Part shown: piece after piece, positions 7,823 to 14,047 of the stretch
Position numbering within the stretch: position 1 is the stretch's first letter
How the letters are laid out: each line of letters opens with the position of its first letter
NCBI RefSeq assembly: GCF_020687385.1
Contig: NZ_JAJEQM010000001.1
Location: forward strand, 259,110 to 283,109
Origin: Hominilimicola fabiformis
Lineage (GTDB): Bacteria; Bacillota; Clostridia; UBA1381
DNA: 24,000 nucleotides
Direction: 5' to 3'
Position numbers and translations under genes: made by a program
The notes under the pieces: model-generated
Told to the model about the DNA's origin: nothing
Databases searched by the model: none
What the model saw: the letters and a program-made list of their open reading frames with translations, nothing else

Positions 7823-7896
<74 letters not shown>

Positions 7897-7902
7897 ATAT
7901 AT

Positions 7903-7979
7903 GTGTCTGTAGCTCAGTTGGATAGAGCAATTGCCTTCTAAGCAATGGGCCGGGGGTTCGAATCCCTCCAGACACGCCA
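7903..7979 (+). tRNA. tRNA-Arg (anticodon UCU), CCA encoded
   Basis: Acceptor gtgtctg/cagacac, anticodon stem attgc/gcaat with loop cTTCTaa, T-loop GGTTCGAATCC. Confidence 0.93.
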
Positions 7980-8037
7980 ATTTCTTTTTGGAATTCAAAA
8001 AGAGTTTAGTGTGCGTAGATAACTACCGCCATCATAT

Positions 8038-8115
8038 GGTGGGTATAGTTCAGCTGGTTAGAGCGTCAGTTTGTGGCACTGAATGTCGTGGGTTCGAATC
8101 CCACTACCCACCCCA
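8038..8115 (+). tRNA. tRNA-His (anticodon GUG), with extra 5' G(-1), CCA encoded
   Basis: Acceptor gtgggta/tacccac preceded by an extra G opposite discriminator C. Anticodon stem tcagt/actga with loop tTGTGgc. Confidence 0.92.
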
Positions 8116-8132
8116 TTTTAATTTTAATATAC

Positions 8133-8208
8133 AGGGATATAGCCAAGTCGGTAAGGCACCAGATTTTGATTCTGGCATGCGTAGGTTCGAGTCCTGCTAT
8201 CCCTGCCA
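8133..8208 (+). tRNA. tRNA-Gln (anticodon UUG), CCA encoded
   Basis: Acceptor agggata/tatccct, anticodon stem ccaga/tctgg with loop tTTTGat. Confidence 0.9.
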
Positions 8209-8284
8209 GGGCCATTAGCTCAGTCGGCAGAGCACTTGACTTTTAATCAAGTTGTCCGGGGTTCGAATCTCCGATGGCTCACCA
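8209..8284 (+). tRNA. tRNA-Lys (anticodon UUU), CCA encoded
   Basis: Acceptor gggccat/atggctc, anticodon stem cttga/tcaag with loop cTTTTaa. It directly abuts tRNA-Gln. Confidence 0.92.
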
Positions 8285-8577: not shown

Positions 8578-8653
8578 TGGCAGGGGTACAAGGACTCGAA
8601 CCTTGGGCACGCGGTTTTGGAGACCGCTGCTCTACCAACTGAGCTACACCCCT
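8578..8653 (-). tRNA. tRNA-Trp (anticodon CCA), CCA end encoded
   Basis: The reverse complement reads aggggtgtagctcagttggtagagcagcggtCTCCAAAaccgc...ggttcgagtccttgtacccctgcca. Anticodon loop is cTCCAaa. Confidence 0.92.
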
Positions 8654-8769: not shown

Positions 8770-9183
8770 TTATATCAAAACACCGTTACAGTGGTCGATT
8801 TCGTGTTGGACGATTTGAGCTGTCCAGCCTTCAAAAGTTTTTGTTCTTATTTTAAAATCAAGTGTCTGATACTGCACGCGTATTTTCTTATACCTTTTAA
8901 TTTTACGAGGGCCGCCGAGCAGGGAAAGACAACTTTCTTCCGTTTCGTATGGGTCAGACCTTTTAATTATTTCGGGATTTAGCATTATCATATATTTTCC
9001 GTCATTATCAAAGCATATAATGCTTTTATTTACGCCTATCATATTTGCCGCCATACCTACGCATACTTCTTTATGTGCGGTTAAGGTTTCAAGCAAGTCT
9101 TGGGCGGTTTGTAAATCGGCGGCTGTTGCCGGTTCTGATTTTAATGTCAAAAATATTGGGTCATGTACAAGTTCTTTAATCAT
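8770..9183 (-). CDS. def: peptide deformylase, short (about 137 aa) paralogue type
   Basis: Motif 2 EESCLSL (EGCLS-like) and motif 3 QHEIDHCNG (HExxH) are present. Motif 1 is GMAANMIG rather than the canonical GxGxAAxQ. GAGG SD upstream. Confidence 0.88.
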   Translation of the reverse strand: MIKELVHDPIFLTLKSEPATAADLQTAQDLLETLTAHKEVCVGMAANMIGVNKSIICFDNDGKYMIMLNPEIIKRSDPYETEESCLSLLGGPRKIKRYKKIRVQYQTLDFKIRTKTFEGWTAQIVQHEIDHCNGVLI

Positions 9184-9346
9184 TTTAAAACCTCACAATA
9201 ATATTGATTACATTTGAATTATAACACAATAGTAATATAAGTCAAGTGTAGGGTAATTTTATTTTTACAGTGAAATATATTGACAAAATAATACAATATA
9301 GGATAAAATATTTATGAAATAAATAAAATTGGTGATGAAGAAAATT

Positions 9347-10063
9347 ATGAAATTAAATATAGCGATTTGCGATGACAACAAATTAGTATTGGAAAATGAG
9401 AAAGCGCTAATTGAAGAAACGTTGAAAGAGATGGGAATACCGTACAAGATGGACAAGTATCAAAATCCCGAAAATCTTATTAAAAATGCTTGGCAATACG
9501 ATTTAGTATTTTTAGATGTGGAAATGGATGAAGTCAACGGAATTGTGGCGGCGGAAAGTATTCACAATATCAACAAGGAATGTTTGCTGTTTTTCGTAAC
9601 CAACCACGAGGTTTATATGGACTATGCTATGAACGAGTATGCATTCAGATTTTGGGTAAAGCCTATGTCGAAAGAAAAACTGAAATTTGGGTTAGAGTCG
9701 GCGTTGAAACGGTTGGAGAACAACAACAAATGCATAGAATTCAACACCGACAGAAATGTTGTGAATATACCGATAAATAAAATTATTTTTATATGTGCCG
9801 AGAACAAAAAAACGACTATTGTTACGGTAGATGAACAATTTGTGGTAGACAGACCGTATAAAGCGGTCAAAGATATGATAAATTCATATTTCTTCTACGA
9901 GTCACACGCAAGTTACTATGTGAACTTAAATTATGTGAAAGCATATTCGCCGTCACACGTAAAATGCGGAATAGGAAATCATGAATATGAAATTCATATG
10001 TCGCGAAGAAAATATACGAAATTTAATAAATATTTTATAGATTGGATGGGTGAACAAAAATGA
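9347..10063 (+). CDS. agrA: LytTR-family two-component response regulator (AgrA-like)
   Basis: Receiver domain with DD (ICDDN), phospho-acceptor Asp (FLDVEMD), Thr (FVTNH) and Lys-Pro (VKP). C-terminal LytTR domain (IPINKIIFICAENKKT...HMSRRKY). Start is uncertain: TTG 9329, ATG 9335 or ATG 9347. The stop overlaps the kinase start (ATGA). Confidence 0.9.
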   Translation: MKLNIAICDDNKLVLENEKALIEETLKEMGIPYKMDKYQNPENLIKNAWQYDLVFLDVEMDEVNGIVAAESIHNINKECLLFFVTNHEVYMDYAMNEYAFRFWVKPMSKEKLKFGLESALKRLENNNKCIEFNTDRNVVNIPINKIIFICAENKKTTIVTVDEQFVVDRPYKAVKDMINSYFFYESHASYYVNLNYVKAYSPSHVKCGIGNHEYEIHMSRRKYTKFNKYFIDWMGEQK

Positions 10064-11340
10064 GAATAGATGCAGGATTGATAATTGGTGTTGCACTGGA
10101 ATTTATAATAATGTTGTATTTTGCAAATTCGACGTTACAACCGAAAAAGAATTATTATATAAGCTCTGCGATGTGCTTTGTGGGGTATTTGATTGTATTT
10201 GCTTTTTCGCTGTTTAATCAATTATTTGTTAATGTGGGTGTTTTTATAGTAATTAATTTGCTGATTTTTAATTTGGGTTATAGAATAAATTTTAAAACCT
10301 CAATATTTCAAACAATAATGTTGTTGGTGTTTATGTTTTTGGGTGAAATAATAGTAGCGTTTACTATGAAAATGGGATTAGACAAGAAAAGCTTTTTAGA
10401 AGTCACGCCTCAACAGTCAATGATTATAACGGTGGCGGGAAAATTGATATACTTTTTATCGGTGTTTTTTATGAAAAGAGTAGACAGAAAAAAGGTGATT
10501 TCTTCAGAAAAATCTTCTCTGTTGTTAGCGGTAGTTCCTATAATGACTTTTGTGTGTTTAATTATGGTTTATCCGCTGAATATTGACAAGCGTATATTTT
10601 CTTCGGTTTGTATTATCGCAATAACCTTAAATGTTGTTACTTTTTCGATAAACGAATTTATGCTTGCAAAAAACAGAAGAATAAGAATACTTGAAGATGA
10701 AAATTATAAAAACTGTATTGAATTAGAAGAATACAAGACGTTAAATGAAAAATATGAACACAGCAGAATAATGAATCATGATTTTAGAGAACATCTAAAT
10801 GTTTTGAAAACTTTAATTTCAGAAGATATTCAAAAAGCACAAGAATATGTAGGAAAGATTGAAAAAGAGTGTGAGGATTCAAAAATAGAAAAATACAGTG
10901 ACAACAATATTCTTAATATATTACTTATTCGCAAGAAAAAAGAGTGTGAAGAAAACGGAATTAAGTTAAACATAACCTCAACTAACCCGAAACTTGATTT
11001 TATAGACGGAATGGACACGGTTGCTATATTTTCTAATTTGATTAACAATGCAATAGAGGCTTGCTCAGACTCGGCAAGAAAAGATATTTTTATTGATTTA
11101 TATACAGTTAATAACGCATTTAGTGTTATTAAAGTTGAAAATTATGCTGATAAAGAGCCGATAGTTGTAGAAGGTATGTTGAGAAGTGGGAAAGATGACG
11201 GTAATTCTCACGGAATCGGTATTAAGAGTATAAATAATTCATTAAGCAAATATGACGGTAAAATGAGTTGGTCGTATGACAAAGCTAAAGGTATGTTTAG
11301 AACCGTTATTTCTATAAATAATTCACAAATTAACATTTAA
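10060..11340 (+). CDS. agrC: AgrC-like sensor histidine kinase (GHKL ATPase, HPK10 type)
   Basis: About 200-aa N-terminal polytopic membrane sensor (6-7 hydrophobic helices). H-box NHDFREHLNVL, N-box FSNLINNAIEA, G-box SHGIGIKSI. Translationally coupled to the LytTR regulator. Confidence 0.9.
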   Translation: MRIDAGLIIGVALEFIIMLYFANSTLQPKKNYYISSAMCFVGYLIVFAFSLFNQLFVNVGVFIVINLLIFNLGYRINFKTSIFQTIMLLVFMFLGEIIVAFTMKMGLDKKSFLEVTPQQSMIITVAGKLIYFLSVFFMKRVDRKKVISSEKSSLLLAVVPIMTFVCLIMVYPLNIDKRIFSSVCIIAITLNVVTFSINEFMLAKNRRIRILEDENYKNCIELEEYKTLNEKYEHSRIMNHDFREHLNVLKTLISEDIQKAQEYVGKIEKECEDSKIEKYSDNNILNILLIRKKKECEENGIKLNITSTNPKLDFIDGMDTVAIFSNLINNAIEACSDSARKDIFIDLYTVNNAFSVIKVENYADKEPIVVEGMLRSGKDDGNSHGIGIKSINNSLSKYDGKMSWSYDKAKGMFRTVISINNSQINI

Positions 11341-11348
11341 AATTTATA

Positions 11349-11377
11349 TTGACATTGTTGACATTTAATGTTATAAT
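11349..11377 (+). promoter_or_regulatory. consensus sigma-A promoter for agrD-agrB
   Basis: TTGACA (11349-11354), 17-nt spacer, TATAAT (11372-11377). A second TTGACA lies at 11358-11363, giving a 9-bp-phased direct repeat TTGACATTG/TTGACATTT. ACATT pentamers occur at 11333, 11352 and 11361. Confidence 0.7.
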
Positions 11378-11427
11378 GTGATTGTAGGAATATAGGTAAA
11401 CGTAAAGATAAGAAAGGATGTTTTATT

Positions 11428-11583
11428 ATGAAAAAGTTCCTAAACAAAGTAGTTCCAACACTAATTAAAATTGTGCCTGTTTGCTCAGCATTGATGCTTG
11501 TAATTAACAGTAATTCAACATCAACAATTTGGAATGGACAGCCGGAAGCACCAAAAGGACTTAAGAAGTATCGTAAGTTCTAA
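11428..11583 (+). CDS. agrD: AgrD-type cyclic autoinducing peptide precursor (51 aa; not in the supplied ORF track)
   Basis: Translation: MKKFLNKVVPTLIKIVPVCSALMLVINSNSTSTIWNGQPEAPKGLKKYRKF. It has a basic/amphipathic N-terminal leader, a short core, and the conserved charged tail QPExPKxL seen in clostridial AgrD. AAAGGA SD lies 9 nt upstream. It ends 2 nt before agrB. Confidence 0.8.
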   Translation: MKKFLNKVVPTLIKIVPVCSALMLVINSNSTSTIWNGQPEAPKGLKKYRKF

Positions 11584-11585
11584 TT

Positions 11586-12182
11586 ATGTTTCGTAAATTT
11601 TCGGAATGGGCTGTGGCATATGCCATTAGGTTAGGTTACATACCTAAGGAAGAACAGGAAGAATATACTTACGGACTTGACCTTGTAATGAGTGTTATTG
11701 TCAGTGATTTGACAATGCTTATAATAGGTATAATAATGAAAATGATACCGCAAGTTATCGTTTTCGGATTTATGTACAAGTTTATTCGTAAATATGTGGG
11801 CGGATACCATTGTGAATCATCTTTGACGTGTTTAATGTCGTCAAGTACGATGTGCATATGCGTTCTGCTTGCTATTAAATATCTTCCGTATAACCTTGGC
11901 GTATACATAGTCGCAACCGTTTTATCTATTGGGGTACTCTTTGCAATTTCGCCAATCGAGGCGATAAACAAACCTTTGGAAGAAATCGAAGTTAAGGTTT
12001 TCGGAAAAAGGGCGAGAATTGTACTTTGTATTACACTTGTAATATTTGGTGTGATTTGCGCGTTCGGTTTGACGGAAATGGTAAAAACAATGGCAATAAG
12101 CGTCGTTGATATTTTACTTTTTGCGGTTATGGGTAAGATAAAATTGTTGAACTACAAAAGGAAAAAAATTGAACAGAATTAA
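11586..12182 (+). CDS. agrB: accessory gene regulator B (AgrB) family membrane peptidase
   Basis: 198-aa polytopic membrane ORF with an AgrB-type N-terminus and the conserved RKYVGGYHCES region (catalytic His/Cys context). It is immediately downstream of agrD. Confidence 0.9.
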   Translation: MFRKFSEWAVAYAIRLGYIPKEEQEEYTYGLDLVMSVIVSDLTMLIIGIIMKMIPQVIVFGFMYKFIRKYVGGYHCESSLTCLMSSSTMCICVLLAIKYLPYNLGVYIVATVLSIGVLFAISPIEAINKPLEEIEVKVFGKRARIVLCITLVIFGVICAFGLTEMVKTMAISVVDILLFAVMGKIKLLNYKRKKIEQN

Positions 12183-12186
12183 CTCG

Positions 12187-12222
12187 AAAAATGTGATATT
12201 TTTACAAATATCACATTTTTTT
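12187..12222 (+). terminator. Rho-independent terminator after agrB
   Basis: Stem aaaatgtgatattt/aaatatcacatttt, followed by T7. Confidence 0.8.
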
Positions 12223-12461: not shown

Positions 12462-12495
12462 TTTAGTAGTTTATGAGATTAGAGGAGAAATGAAA

Positions 12496-13050
12496 ATGAG
12501 TTATATAAGAAATGTTGAATTATCCGACGCGGAAGTGTTGGTTGAAATATACCGTCCGTATGTCGAAAATACAACAATATCGTTTGAATATGAAACTCCG
12601 TCTGTAGACGAGTTTAGAAGTCGTATTGAAAATATTTCAAAAAAGTATCCTTACATTGTTATGGTTGAGGACGATGAAATTGTCGGTTATGCATATGCGG
12701 GAACGTTCAAAGGACGTAAGGCGTATGACTGGAGCGTTGAAACGACTATATATGTAAGAGAGGACAAAAAAGGTGGCGGATACGGCAAGAAGTTGTATCT
12801 TGAACTTGAAGAAAGATTGAAAAAACAAAACATTCTTAATATGTATGCTTGTATTGCGTATACGGACAATGAAGATGGGCATTTGACAAACAACAGTATG
12901 CAGTTCCACGAGCATATGGGTTTCAGACTTATCGGCACATTCAAAAAGTGCGGTTACAAGTTCGACAAGTGGTACGATATGATTTGGATGGAGAAATTTA
13001 TCGGCGAACATAAGGTTAATCCCGACGCGGTGACAAAACCTGAAATTTAG
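12496..13050 (+). CDS. GNAT family N-acetyltransferase (phosphinothricin / methionine-sulfoximine acetyltransferase-like)
   Basis: PAT-like N-terminus (IRNVELSDAEVLVEIYRPYVENTTISFEYETPSVDEF) and AcCoA-binding motif KKGGGYGKKLYLELEERL. ATG 12496 lies 8 nt after GGAG; the track start at 12490 is too close to the SD. Confidence 0.88.
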   Translation: MSYIRNVELSDAEVLVEIYRPYVENTTISFEYETPSVDEFRSRIENISKKYPYIVMVEDDEIVGYAYAGTFKGRKAYDWSVETTIYVREDKKGGGYGKKLYLELEERLKKQNILNMYACIAYTDNEDGHLTNNSMQFHEHMGFRLIGTFKKCGYKFDKWYDMIWMEKFIGEHKVNPDAVTKPEI

Positions 13051-13120
13051 TTTACAATTTTCGATATGTGTGATAGACTATAGGAACAGTGCATAAAATA
13101 GTACATAAGGAGGTTTACAT

Positions 13121-14047
13121 ATGGCGAATAAAGTAGAAGATTTAGTCAATGTGATTTTAGACAGCTACAATGAATGTGACATTACAGCGAGAATTGACGA
13201 AGAGAATATGCTTAACAAGGATATTCTTATAGAAATTATAGATGAAATAAGAAAAGTGCTTTTTCCGGGCTTTTTTGACAACAACAAGGTCAGAAGTGAA
13301 TACTTAAAGTTTCTTGTCGGTGAAAGACTGGAATTTATACAGTATCATTTGAAGAAACAGGTATCAAACGCGTTTGCAAATCAAGATGTATGCAGAGAGT
13401 GCAGTAAGGCACAGGCAGAGGAAAAAGCGGAAGAAGTTGTTTTTGAATTTTTAAAGAGAATACCGAAAATAAGAGAATACTTAAATACAGACATTCAAGC
13501 TGCGTATGACGGTGACCCTGCGGCATACAGCACAGATGAAATAATTTTCTGTTATCCGGGAGTGTTTGCAATCACTGTTTACAGAATTGCTCACGAATTG
13601 TGGCTTTTGGGCGTGCCTATGATTCCGAGAATAATGACGGAATATGCTCACAGCACAACAGGTATAGATATTCACCCGGGTGCGACTGTCGGCAAATATT
13701 TCTTTATAGACCACGGTACAGGTATTGTTATAGGTGAAACTACCGAAATCGGCGATAATGTAAAAATATATCAAGGCGTTACTTTAGGTGCACTTTCGAC
13801 AAGAAAAGGTCAGCAGTTAAAGGGTGTTAAACGTCATCCGACTATCAGTGACAACGTTACGATATATTCGGGTACGACTATTCTTGGCGGTGAAACGGTT
13901 GTCGGTAAGGGTACGACTATCGGCGGTAATGCGTTTATCGTTAATTCCGTTTCGGAGGGTATGAAAGTCAGCGTGAAAAATCCCGAACTTGAGTACAGTG
14001 TCGGAAATGCGTCTATGAAGGACGGTTATTGGGATTGGTGTATATAA
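13121..14047 (+). CDS. cysE: serine O-acetyltransferase (long form)
   Basis: Left-handed beta-helix hexapeptide region [41 protein letters not shown], preceded by the SAT N-terminal helical domain. AAGGAGG SD upstream. Confidence 0.9.

What the first reader, a model, noticed from the sequence alone, without database searches (positions are those of the whole stretch)
11428..11583. Untracked AgrD precursor with Ser instead of Cys at the ring position (predicted lactone autoinducer)
A 51-aa ORF lies between the AgrC-like kinase and AgrB. It has the AgrD architecture: an amphipathic leader, a short core and a charged tail QPEAPKGLKK.

I aligned the tail to clostridial AgrD precursors of the form C-x4-(H)QPEEPK. 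For example, in C. perfringens the ring CLWFT precedes HQPEEPKSL. This places Ser in ...NSTS-T-I-W-N-G-QPEAPK at the position of the thiolactone Cys, giving a predicted 5-residue ring S-T-I-W-N. The only Cys in the peptide lies 12 residues upstream, inside the hydrophobic leader.

Serine-lactone AIPs are established in the Staphylococcus intermedius/pseudintermedius group (core TSTGFF). A Cys-less AgrD in a clostridial-type locus would be unusual and makes a concrete chemical prediction.
Basis: partly seen in the sequence, partly recalled or inferred. Interest (0 to 1): 0.68.

Follow-up and report, generated by a model that had tools for sequence, protein, structure and literature searches.

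The report
Cys-less AgrD quorum-sensing peptide precursor
This is a genuine, already-annotated gene for a bacterial cell-to-cell signalling peptide (AgrD) from a common gut Clostridia species; it lacks the usual ring-forming cysteine, and its relatives suggest the ring may be closed through threonine 33 rather than serine 32.

Summary
The 51-aa ORF at 11428-11583 is real. It matches the AgrD model TIGR04223 (27.2 bits, cutoff 19) and lies between an AgrC-like kinase and AgrB. It is under purifying selection and occurs on at least 1000 public contigs. RefSeq already names a sister allele [quoted passage not shown], so it is not new as a gene.

The core has no Cys.

The peptide's own subfamily tells a different story. 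Its 110 distinct sequences follow the pattern ..NST-x-[C/S/T]-x-x-N-G-QPxxP..KKYRKF.
- The only column that always holds a nucleophile is the next one, Thr33 (S 58, C 29, T 23).
- Column 32 is Ala in 68 sequences.
- The nearest Cys-type relative reads NSNSTS-C-IFNGQP.
- Natural S32A variants keep intact loci.

Cys-less cores are the majority in this subfamily (74%). A clostridial lactone AIP is already published for C. thermocellum.

What is unusual is the position of the nucleophile, 9 rather than 10 residues before the conserved Pro. This implies either a 4-residue ring or a shifted cleavage site. Thr at that position is also unusual. Ser32 versus Thr33 remains unresolved. Interest is moderate.

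The parts
9329..10063 (+). AgrA-like response regulator (receiver + LytTR DNA-binding domain). The true start is probably one of the ATGs a few codons downstream of the listed TTG.
   Evidence: Pfam Response_reg E 1.9e-11 and LytTR E 2.2e-13. Orthologues were called at 239-242 aa in L036 and L037.
10060..11340 (+). AgrC-like sensor histidine kinase, the presumed receptor of the peptide.
   Evidence: Pfam HATPase_c_5 E 1.9e-17. About 7 hydrophobic segments in residues 1-200 and an NHDFREH H-box at H240. Conserved upstream of agrD in L001-L004, L006, L007 and L035.
11349..11377 (+). Sigma-70-type promoter of the agrD-agrB pair: TTGACA, 17 nt, TATAAT with a TG extension. The -35 hexamer is part of a TTGACATT x2 direct repeat.
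   Evidence: 12 of 12 consensus match. Repeat D1. Identical in L001 and L036-L038.
11428..11583 (+). agrD: the 51-aa autoinducing-peptide precursor.
   Evidence: TIGR04223 27.2 bits against cutoff 19. The identical protein P0181 is on at least 1000 contigs. 13 synonymous versus 3 non-synonymous codon differences to L001.
11428..11520 (+). Leader, residues 1-31: basic N-terminus, hydrophobic stretch 8-26, polar NSNST end. It contains C19, which is not conserved in the subfamily.
   Evidence: Hydropathy segment 8-26. Column 19 is C 45, I 39, V 13, L 7, M 4, F 2.
11521..11523 (+). Ser32 codon (tca). In the subfamily it is mostly Ala.
   Evidence: Alignment A5. Column 32 is A 68, S 31, T 4, G 4. 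The natural tca>gca (S32A) variant occurs in L036-L038.
11524..11526 (+). Thr33 codon (aca). This is the only column that holds a nucleophile in every subfamily member, so it is the likelier ring-forming residue.
   Evidence: Column 33 is S 58, C 29, T 23 of 110. P0082 has Cys here with identical flanks. Synonymous aca>act in L001 and L035.
11527..11535 (+). I34-W35-N36. I34 and W35 are the two hypervariable (specificity) positions. N36 is the predicted last ring residue (P1) under canonical cleavage.
   Evidence: Alleles IW, VW, IL, IV, IG, LM, SF, VM, LV, TY, TF. N36 aligns with the ring-end residues of characterised AgrDs.
11536..11580 (+). Follower peptide G37-F51 (GQPEAPKGLKKYRKF), which AgrB removes. 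It contains the invariant P42.
   Evidence: It aligns without gaps to DEVEVPKEL, HQPEEPKSL and FsrD GQTEKPKK. G37 109/110, Q38 110/110, P42 110/110.
11586..12182 (+). agrB: membrane cysteine peptidase/cyclase that processes AgrD.
   Evidence: PF04647 E 7.2e-33. H75 and C82 are invariant and align with the His/Cys of FsrB. About 5 hydrophobic segments.
12186..12222 (+). A/T-rich 16-bp hairpin followed by a T run. Probable terminator of agrDB.
   Evidence: -14.7 kcal/mol, z -6.79, 0 of 200 shuffles fold as well.

Best explanation
The ORF is the agrD gene of a four-gene agr-type quorum-sensing locus (response regulator, kinase, agrD, agrB) in a Hominilimicola-like gut Clostridia genome.

Proposed pathway:
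1. The 51-aa precursor inserts into the membrane by its hydrophobic leader.
2. AgrB (His75/Cys82) removes the follower GQPEAPKGLKKYRKF by cutting between N36 and G37. This forms an acyl-enzyme on N36.
3. A side-chain hydroxyl of the core attacks that acyl-enzyme and releases a macrolactone.
4. The leader is then removed. The two hypervariable ring residues (I34, W35) give allele specificity for the adjacent AgrC-like kinase, which signals through the LytTR regulator.

The ring-forming residue is most likely Thr33. It is the only position that carries Cys, Ser or Thr in every member of the peptide's own subfamily. With canonical cleavage this gives a 4-residue ring, T-I-W-N. If cleavage is shifted by one residue it gives a 5-residue ring, T-I-W-N-G.

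What is shown and what is inferred:
- Shown here: gene identity, locus architecture, conservation pattern and alignment registers.
- Inferred: every processing step, the nucleophile and the ring size.
For: AgrD and AgrB identity:
- TIGR04223 scores above its cutoff.
- AgrB matches PF04647, and its His/Cys dyad is conserved.
- The order RR-HK-D-B is conserved and all genes are full length in L001-L004, L006, L007, L035, L036 and L037.

Nucleophile column:
- Column 33 is C, S or T in 110 of 110 distinct subfamily sequences. Column 32 is Ala in 68.
- P0082, the nearest non-Thr relative (64-79% identical to members of the window's clade outside the core, 72% to the window), reads NSNSTS-C-IFNGQP.
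- NSVA-T-PING and NSVA-S-PING differ only at this column.
- Thr with Ala32 occurs in at least two further clades: the ATP clade (L003, L005, L007) and P0267/P0271. Each sits next to agrB.
- AgrB identity within the ATP clade is only 42-57%, so Thr has been kept over deep divergence.

Within the window's own clade:
- T33 is invariant and carries synonymous changes.
- S32A occurs in P0190 (3 samples, intact loci) and in P0074/L035.

Cleavage at N36|G37:
- In six characterised systems the first follower residue lies 5 residues before the conserved Pro. These are S. aureus, C. perfringens, Listeria, L. plantarum and FsrD (sequences verified, aligned), plus C. thermocellum Y30/P35.
- FsrD's follower also starts with GQ.
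- Ring size is known to vary with nucleophile position. C. acetobutylicum has a 6-residue ring (R6T0, PMC10301443). GBAP has a 9-residue ring (from my own knowledge).
Against: - Alignment to all characterised AgrDs puts their Cys on Ser32, not Thr33.
- A Ser32-to-N36 ring would have the canonical 5 residues and would start S-T, like the staphylococcal lactone ring S-T-G-F-F.
- A primary alcohol closing a 16-membered ring is chemically easier than a secondary alcohol closing a 13-membered ring (general chemistry, inference).
- Ser32 is enriched where column 33 is Thr: 19 of 23 versus 12 of 87. This could mean Ser32 is the working nucleophile in this clade. The counts are not phylogenetically independent.
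- The S32A variants are rare (3 contigs against at least 1000) and could be signal-null variants.
- I know of no characterised AIP with a Thr linkage or a 4-residue ring, and I found none in the library.
- Nothing here shows processing or secretion.
Confidence: 0.5

Rival explanations
1. Ser32 is the ring nucleophile, AgrB cuts N36|G37, and the product is a canonical 5-residue serine lactone S-T-I-W-N (with or without an N-terminal tail). In this clade Thr33 would be only ring position 2.
For: - MAFFT alignment to S. aureus, C. perfringens, Listeria and L. plantarum AgrDs places their Cys on Ser32 and their ring-end residue on N36.
- The distance from Ser32 to the conserved Pro42 is 10 residues, as in C. 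thermocellum S25/P35.
- The S. pseudintermedius AIPs end in S-T-G-F-F.
- More distant relatives with canonical spacing exist, such as NTT-S-TWIA-HQPKVP (P0302) and NVT-C-SWIW-GQPETP (P0282).
- Ser32 co-occurs with Thr33 in 19 of 23 sequences.
Against: - Column 32 is Ala in 68 of 110 subfamily sequences, so it cannot be the family's nucleophile.
- The closest Cys-type relative has Ser32 as well, yet places its Cys at column 33.
- S32A occurs naturally with intact loci in the same species and in L035.
- Thr33 is invariant although the neighbouring ring positions 34 and 35 are hypervariable.
Confidence: 0.37
2. The secreted signal is not a lactone. The leader is cut directly before the nucleophile residue. 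The free alpha-amine then takes over the acyl group (O-to-N acyl shift), giving an all-amide cyclic peptide. This parallels what has been shown for tail-free clostridial thiolactones. It concerns the final chemical form and is compatible with either nucleophile.
For: - Molloy et al. showed that tail-free clostridial AIPs rearrange to homodetic cyclopeptides. They state that the fate of tail-free Ser lactones is open (PMC8251862).
- Columns 30 (S 84, A 20) and 32 (A 68, S 31, G 4, T 4) resemble the small -3 and -1 residues of a type I signal-peptidase site placed just before column 33 (the resemblance is my inference).
- Free interchange of C, S and T at column 33 is easy to understand if the side chain acts only transiently.
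Against: - The C. thermocellum tail-free Ser peptide was reported as a lactone that matched a synthetic standard.
- A 12-membered all-L cyclic tetrapeptide would be strained (inference).
- The leader cleavage site was not predicted with any tool here.
Confidence: 0.25
3. The peptide is not cyclised by AgrB at all. It could be a degenerate or decaying signal gene, or the ring could use the leader Cys19.
For: No Cys in the core. No experimental data.
Against: - The gene is under purifying selection and all four genes are intact across many contigs and species.
- AgrB keeps its catalytic His and Cys.
- Hypervariability is confined to two core positions, as in functional agr specificity groups.
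- Cys19 is replaced by I, V, L, M or F in 65 of 110 relatives.
Confidence: 0.06

Closest known systems
Staphylococcus intermedius/pseudintermedius AgrD (AIPs RIPTSTGFF, RIPISTGFF, KIPTSTGFF, KYPTSTGFF; serine lactone, Ji et al. 2005)
   Same: No Cys in the core. A T-S-T or S-T motif sits at the ring start. Ser lies 10 residues before the conserved Pro, as Ser32 does here. A hydroxyl-linked ring is expected.
   Different: - Staphylococcal follower (DE..P) and agrBDCA gene order.
- Ser there has no competing, better-conserved neighbour.
- Here the subfamily's conserved nucleophile is the residue after that Ser.
Enterococcus faecalis FsrD / GBAP (QN[SPNIFGQWM], serine lactone)
   Same: A lactone-forming AgrD/AgrB-type system. 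The follower starts G-Q-x-E-x-P-K (GQTEKPKK against GQPEAPKG), with Gly as the first residue after the cut.
   Different: - The GBAP ring has 9 residues.
- fsrD is read in frame with the end of fsrB.
- The leader is unrelated.
Clostridium (Acetivibrio) thermocellum Clo1313_2818 cyclic pentapeptide (Verbeke et al. 2017, PMC5322536)
   Same: A clostridial, Cys-less AgrD whose product was reported as a tail-free lactone. A small residue precedes the nucleophile.
   Different: - Ser is 10 residues before the conserved Pro, the ring has 5 residues, and the follower starts with Tyr.
- It is not next to agrB.
- It is not in the KKYRKF subfamily.
Clostridium perfringens AgrD (ring CLWFT, follower HQPEEPKSL)
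   Same: The follower QPE-x-PK-x-L is almost identical. A polar motif (TSA there, NST here) comes before the ring. It is the same TIGR04223 family.
   Different: Cys thiolactone with canonical spacing. Gene order agrB-agrD. The tail lacks KKYRKF.
Clostridium acetobutylicum AgrD (synthetic R6T0 active; six-residue ring, PMC10301443)
   Same: It shows that in Clostridia the ring size changes when the nucleophile moves by one residue while the follower stays in register.
   Different: The shift is in the opposite direction (larger ring), and the nucleophile is Cys.

Membership tests
AgrD precursor family (NCBIfam TIGR04223) | Score above the curated family cutoff | tested here: met
   27.2 bits against cutoff 19, E 3.1e-6, residues 18-47 on model positions 9-38. 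Pfam has no hit for the peptide.
AgrD precursor family (NCBIfam TIGR04223) | Encoded next to an agrB gene, and this pairing is conserved in relatives | tested here: met
   agrB starts 3 nt after the agrD stop. The same pairing is found in L001-L007, L035-L038 and L040.
AgrD precursor family (NCBIfam TIGR04223) | Three-part build: membrane-binding leader, short core, charged follower with a conserved Pro | tested here: met
   Hydrophobic segment 8-26. The follower GQPEAPKGL aligns without gaps to characterised followers, and P42 is invariant.
AgrD precursor family (NCBIfam TIGR04223) | Ring nucleophile (Cys, rarely Ser) five residues before the AgrB cut, that is 10 residues before the conserved Pro | tested here: inconclusive
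   The window peptide has Ser32 at that spot. In its subfamily that column is Ala in 68 of 110, and the conserved nucleophile is 9 residues before the Pro.
AgrD precursor family (NCBIfam TIGR04223) | Processed by AgrB to a secreted cyclic peptide | not testable with these tools
   Needs co-expression and mass spectrometry.
Serine-lactone AIPs (S. intermedius type, GBAP, C. thermocellum) | No Cys in the core, with a Ser available at the ring position | tested here: met
   The core NSTSTIWN has no Cys, and Ser32 is on the canonical column.
Serine-lactone AIPs (S. intermedius type, GBAP, C. thermocellum) | That Ser is conserved as the nucleophile among relatives | tested here: not met
   Column 32 is A 68, S 31, T 4, G 4. 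There are natural S32A variants with intact loci. The relatives' Cys is at column 33.
Serine-lactone AIPs (S. intermedius type, GBAP, C. thermocellum) | Ester bond demonstrated chemically | not testable with these tools
   No experimental data.
AgrB peptidase/cyclase (PF04647) | Family profile match and the catalytic His/Cys pair, 7 residues apart | tested here: met
   E 7.2e-33. H75 and C82 are invariant in 16 homologues and align with FsrB.
AgrC/AgrA-type two-component pair | Multi-pass membrane sensor with a HATPase_c_5 kinase core, and a receiver + LytTR regulator | tested here: met
Canonical agr operon (agrBDCA with an AgrA-activated P2 promoter) | Gene order B-D-C-A and LytTR direct repeats upstream of agrB | tested here: not met
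   The order here is A-C-D-B. agrD has its own perfect sigma-70 consensus promoter. The repeat scan of the two upstream regions found no spaced direct repeats of the kind LytTR regulators bind, only the overlapping TTGACATT x2.

The most novel reading that the evidence does not exclude
This gut-Clostridia AgrD subfamily (..NST-x-[C/S/T]-x-x-N-G-QPxxP..KKYRKF) makes autoinducing peptides with a ring of only four residues, closed one position later than in every characterised AIP. In about a fifth of its members, including this abundant Hominilimicola allele, the ring would be closed through threonine. That would be the first threonine-linked AIP and the smallest AIP macrocycle.
Probability: 0.3. 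Interest if true: 0.65.

Novelty: new variant of a known kind. Interest (0 to 1): 0.45.

Why it matters
AIP structure is normally predicted from sequence by the rule [quoted passage not shown]. Large microbiome mining and synthesis efforts rely on that rule (for example PMC11953309).

This peptide belongs to a sizeable gut subfamily: 193 clusters at 90% identity with E<=1 (120 listed and read) and 57 clusters at 50% identity. There the rule gives the wrong residue for most members, and Thr appears in the nucleophile column.

If confirmed, synthetic AIPs for these organisms would have to be redesigned. AgrB chemistry would extend to a secondary alcohol and/or a smaller ring. The producer is common in human gut metagenomes (at least 1000 contigs) and its genus has a named species, Hominilimicola fabiformis, so the prediction may be directly testable in culture.

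Tried and rejected
- Pfam gave no hit for the 51-aa peptide. Only NCBIfam recognises it.
- The PDB sequence search found no AgrB structure to model the cut site.
- An AgrB-AgrD complex model could not be run. The structure tool takes a single chain, and agrD and agrB are in different frames.
- Literature searches for a Thr-linked AIP found nothing relevant. The search for the motif KKYRKF found nothing.
- The supplements of the microbiome RiPP paper are not held. The FsrD paper PMC1698201 is not held. I therefore verified the FsrD and four other AgrD sequences by exact database look-up.
- Cys19 as the ring residue was rejected because the column is not conserved.
- I considered Ser30 or Thr31 as alternative nucleophiles. 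Both were rejected because those columns are Ala, Val or Ile in many members.
- A scan for direct repeats of the kind LytTR regulators bind, upstream of the regulator gene and of agrD, found nothing convincing.
- Rfam found only the six tRNAs.
- The choice between a 4-residue ring (cut N36|G37) and a 5-residue ring (cut G37|Q38) could not be settled from sequence. Follower homology favours the former. The canonical ring size favours the latter.

Full report
**Observation**

The ORF at 11428-11583 (+) exists exactly as described. It encodes MKKFLNKVVPTLIKIVPVCSALMLVINSNSTSTIWNGQPEAPKGLKKYRKF.

Its neighbours form an agr-type locus:
- Upstream lie a LytTR response regulator (9329-10063) and a multi-pass GHKL kinase (10060-11340; HATPase_c_5, about 7 hydrophobic segments, NHDFREH H-box).
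- Three bases downstream lies AgrB (11586-12182, PF04647 E 7e-33).
- AgrB residues His75 and Cys82 are invariant among homologues and align with FsrB.

The peptide has no Pfam hit. It passes the curated cutoff of NCBIfam TIGR04223, quorum_AgrD (27.2 bits against 19).

The agrD-agrB pair has its own expression signals:
- A perfect TTGACA-17-TATAAT promoter with a TG extension at 11349-11377.
- An AAAGGA ribosome-binding site 9 nt before the ATG.
- A 16-bp hairpin plus a T run after agrB (z -6.8).

**Is it a real gene, and is it new?**

The identical peptide (P0181) is on at least 1000 public contigs, the longest 3.03 Mb. A sister allele (VW instead of IW) is RefSeq WP_147514981.1, named [quoted passage not shown]. 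Hominilimicola is an Oscillospiraceae genus. A human-gut MAG contig (L001) is 95-96% identical across the locus.

Window versus L001 shows 13 synonymous and 3 non-synonymous codon differences in agrD. Among 23 close clusters, only residues 34 and 35 vary freely: IW, VW, IL, IV, IG, LM, SF, VM, LV, TY, TF. This is the pattern expected of agr specificity alleles.

So the gene is real, functional-looking and already recognised by public annotation.

**The register relative to characterised AgrDs**

I verified by exact look-up that my recalled sequences of five characterised precursors are in the collection under the right organisms. They are E. faecalis FsrD, S. aureus AgrD-I, C. perfringens AgrD, L. 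monocytogenes AgrD and L. plantarum LamD. The GBAP string QNSPNIFGQWM and the S. pseudintermedius AIP strings are in the literature.

In all of these, and in C. thermocellum (S25...F29 | Y30...P35, PMC5322536), the first follower residue lies 5 residues before the conserved Pro: DEVEVP, HQPEEP, YEPKSP, FETKIP, GQTEKP.

MAFFT aligns the window follower G37-QPEA-P42-KGL to these without gaps. It places the characterised Cys residues on Ser32 and the ring-end residues on N36. It starts S-T, like the staphylococcal lactone ring S-T-G-F-F.

**The register within the peptide's own subfamily**

I scanned small ORFs beside AgrB homologues in 34 genome loci and ran a profile search (193 clusters at 90% identity with E<=1, of which the best 120 were listed and read). 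Together they define a subfamily with the build ..N-S-T-x-[C/S/T]-x-x-N-G-Q-P-x-x-P..L-K-K-Y-R-K-F. It is always encoded directly upstream of agrB and downstream of the regulator and kinase genes.

Over 110 distinct sequences (an earlier count is):

| Column (window residue) | Composition |
|---|---|
| 33 (Thr33) | S 58, C 29, T 23 |
| 32 (Ser32) | A 68, S 31, T 4, G 4, M/V/C 1 each |
| 37 (G37) | G 109 of 110 |
| 38 (Q38) | Q 110 of 110 |
| 42 (P42) | P 110 of 110 |
| 19 (leader Cys19) | C 45, I 39, V 13, L 7, M 4, F 2 |

Column 33 is therefore the only column that always holds a nucleophile.

Further points:
- The nearest non-Thr relative of the window peptide, P0082 (64-79% identical to members of the window's clade outside the core, 72% to the window), reads ..LVINSNSTS-C-IFNGQP... 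Its Cys sits exactly where the window has Thr33, with identical flanks and with Ser32 also present.
- NSVA-T-PINGQP (L003, L005, L007) and NSVA-S-PINGQP (P0115) differ only in this column.

The subfamily's nucleophile therefore lies 9, not 10, residues before the conserved Pro. In that column the window peptide carries Thr.

**Is Thr a maintained state?**

Thr at column 33 occurs in at least three groups:
- The window clade (S-T; AgrB 59-95% identical to each other).
- The A-T-P clade. Its AgrBs are only 42-57% identical to each other and 34-41% to the window, no closer than the Cys-type L004 or the Ser-type L006.
- An A-T-W group (P0267, P0271), found by the every-sequence profile search (57 clusters at 50% identity). 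P0267 lies directly upstream of an agrB.

In two of these groups column 32 is Ala, so Thr is the only hydroxyl residue at or next to the position.

Inside the window's own clade:
- Thr33 is invariant and carries synonymous changes (aca to act).
- Ser32 is replaced by Ala in P0074/L035, where the four-gene locus is intact.
- Ser32 is also replaced by Ala in P0190. This is a single tca-to-gca change of the very same allele, seen in three independent samples with intact regulator, kinase (426 aa), agrD and agrB (198 aa).

**Weighing Ser32 against Thr33**

For Thr33:
- The column statistics.
- The Cys-for-Thr replacement in the nearest relative.
- Invariance of Thr33 next to hypervariable positions.
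- Natural S32A variants.
- The Ala32-Thr33 clades.

For Ser32:
- It is the canonical spacing in every characterised system.
- It gives the canonical 5-residue, 16-membered ring.
- A primary alcohol is the better nucleophile.
- Ser32 accompanies Thr33 in 19 of 23 sequences against 12 of 87 otherwise. These counts are not phylogenetically independent.
- The S32A variants are rare enough to be signal-null variants, which are common in agr systems (my knowledge).

I put Thr33 at about 0.5, Ser32 at about 0.37, and the remainder on other outcomes.

**Where is the cut?**

Follower homology points to N36|G37:
- The P-minus-5 rule holds in six characterised systems.
- FsrD also begins its follower with GQ.
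- More distant KKYRKF-tailed relatives with canonical spacing have Gly in the same place, such as NTA-C-VWVL-GQPEEP and NVT-C-SWIW-GQPETP.

With a column-33 nucleophile, this cut gives a 4-residue, 13-membered ring.

Ring size is known to follow nucleophile position in this family. C. acetobutylicum uses a 6-residue ring (R6T0, PMC10301443), and GBAP uses a 9-residue ring (my knowledge).

The alternative is a 5-residue ring ending in the invariant Gly37, with the cut shifted by one. This keeps the canonical ring size but breaks follower register.

I could not settle this from sequence. Either way the subfamily departs from the rule used to predict AIPs.

**Final chemical form**

Columns 30 and 32 are dominated by small residues (S/A and A/S/G/T). 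This resembles the -3 and -1 positions of a signal-peptidase site just before column 33 (inference).

If the leader is removed there, the product is tail-free. An O-to-N acyl shift to an all-amide ring then becomes possible, as shown for tail-free clostridial thiolactones. This was left open for Ser lactones by Molloy et al. (PMC8251862).

**Comparison with what is known, and novelty**

Lactone AIPs are documented in three systems: S. intermedius/pseudintermedius, E. faecalis GBAP and C. thermocellum (references listed).

In this subfamily Cys-less cores are the majority (81 of 110; only 5 of those have a Cys elsewhere in columns 28-37). Other Cys-less candidate AgrD ORFs lie next to agrB in Lachnospiraceae and related MAGs.

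What I could not find in the literature is any AIP closed through Thr, any 4-residue AIP ring, or any description of this subfamily. A recent microbiome-wide AIP synthesis study assumes Cys or Ser only (PMC11953309).

I therefore rate the locus as a new variant of a known kind, of moderate interest. The gene and system are ordinary. The nucleophile position and identity are not, but they remain predictions.

Noticed in passing
window 9329-12182; L001-L007, L035-L037: The gene order is regulator-kinase-agrD-agrB, the reverse arrangement of the staphylococcal agrBDCA. agrD lies before agrB. This order is conserved throughout the subfamily.
   Followed up: partly
window 11349-11377: agrD-agrB has a perfect sigma-70 consensus promoter (12/12, TG-extended) embedded in a TTGACATT x2 direct repeat. 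It is identical in relatives. This looks constitutive rather than AgrA-activated, so any autoinduction may act elsewhere.
   Followed up: partly
window 11515-11526: Codons S30-T31-S32-T33 form a tandem 6-nt duplication (tcaaca tcaaca). Metagenome variants lacking two residues of the NSNSTST stretch exist (P0003 INSTSTIW, P0010 NSNSTILNG). This suggests slippage, and it is how an S-T pair could have arisen beside the nucleophile.
   Followed up: partly
loci L011, L008, L030; proteins P0301, P0304, P0285: Other AgrD groups also have adjacent nucleophiles, such as S-C (NSAS-C-VFLYQP, NSTS-C-IVVHQP) or C-C. There the Cys is 9 rather than 10 residues before the conserved Pro. The one-residue register ambiguity is therefore not confined to this subfamily.
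   Followed up: no
loci L013, L014, L015, L018, L024, L032, L033: Several candidate AgrD ORFs flanking agrB in Lachnospiraceae, Erysipelotrichales and related genomes have no Cys in the predicted core (for example AGRSASWYGFYQAKEPEAL and NAEAASSGHAYEPEMPSMM). Cys-less AgrDs seem common in gut Bacillota.
   Followed up: no
proteins P0016, P0017, P0019, P0023: Some metagenome variants of this AgrD have frameshifted or rearranged C-termini (for example ..QPEAKDLRSIVSSDYVS) or a duplicated leader. They may be assembly errors or decayed alleles.
   Followed up: no
window 7823-8284 (+) and 8578-8653 (-): A cluster of five tRNA genes (Gly-TCC, Arg-TCT, His-GTG, Gln-TTG, Lys-TTT) and an opposing tRNA-Trp lie just upstream of the locus. 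A peptide deformylase gene is at 8770-9183 (-).
   Followed up: partly
window 12490-14047: Downstream of agrB lie a GNAT acetyltransferase and a hexapeptide-repeat protein, in the same order in L001 and L036. There is no sign that they belong to the agr unit.
   Followed up: no
L035 3066-5225: In the P0074 (Ala32-Thr33) locus, agrB is followed by a YobI-ATPase family gene instead of the window's GNAT gene. The agr cassette therefore sits in different contexts in different lineages.
   Followed up: no
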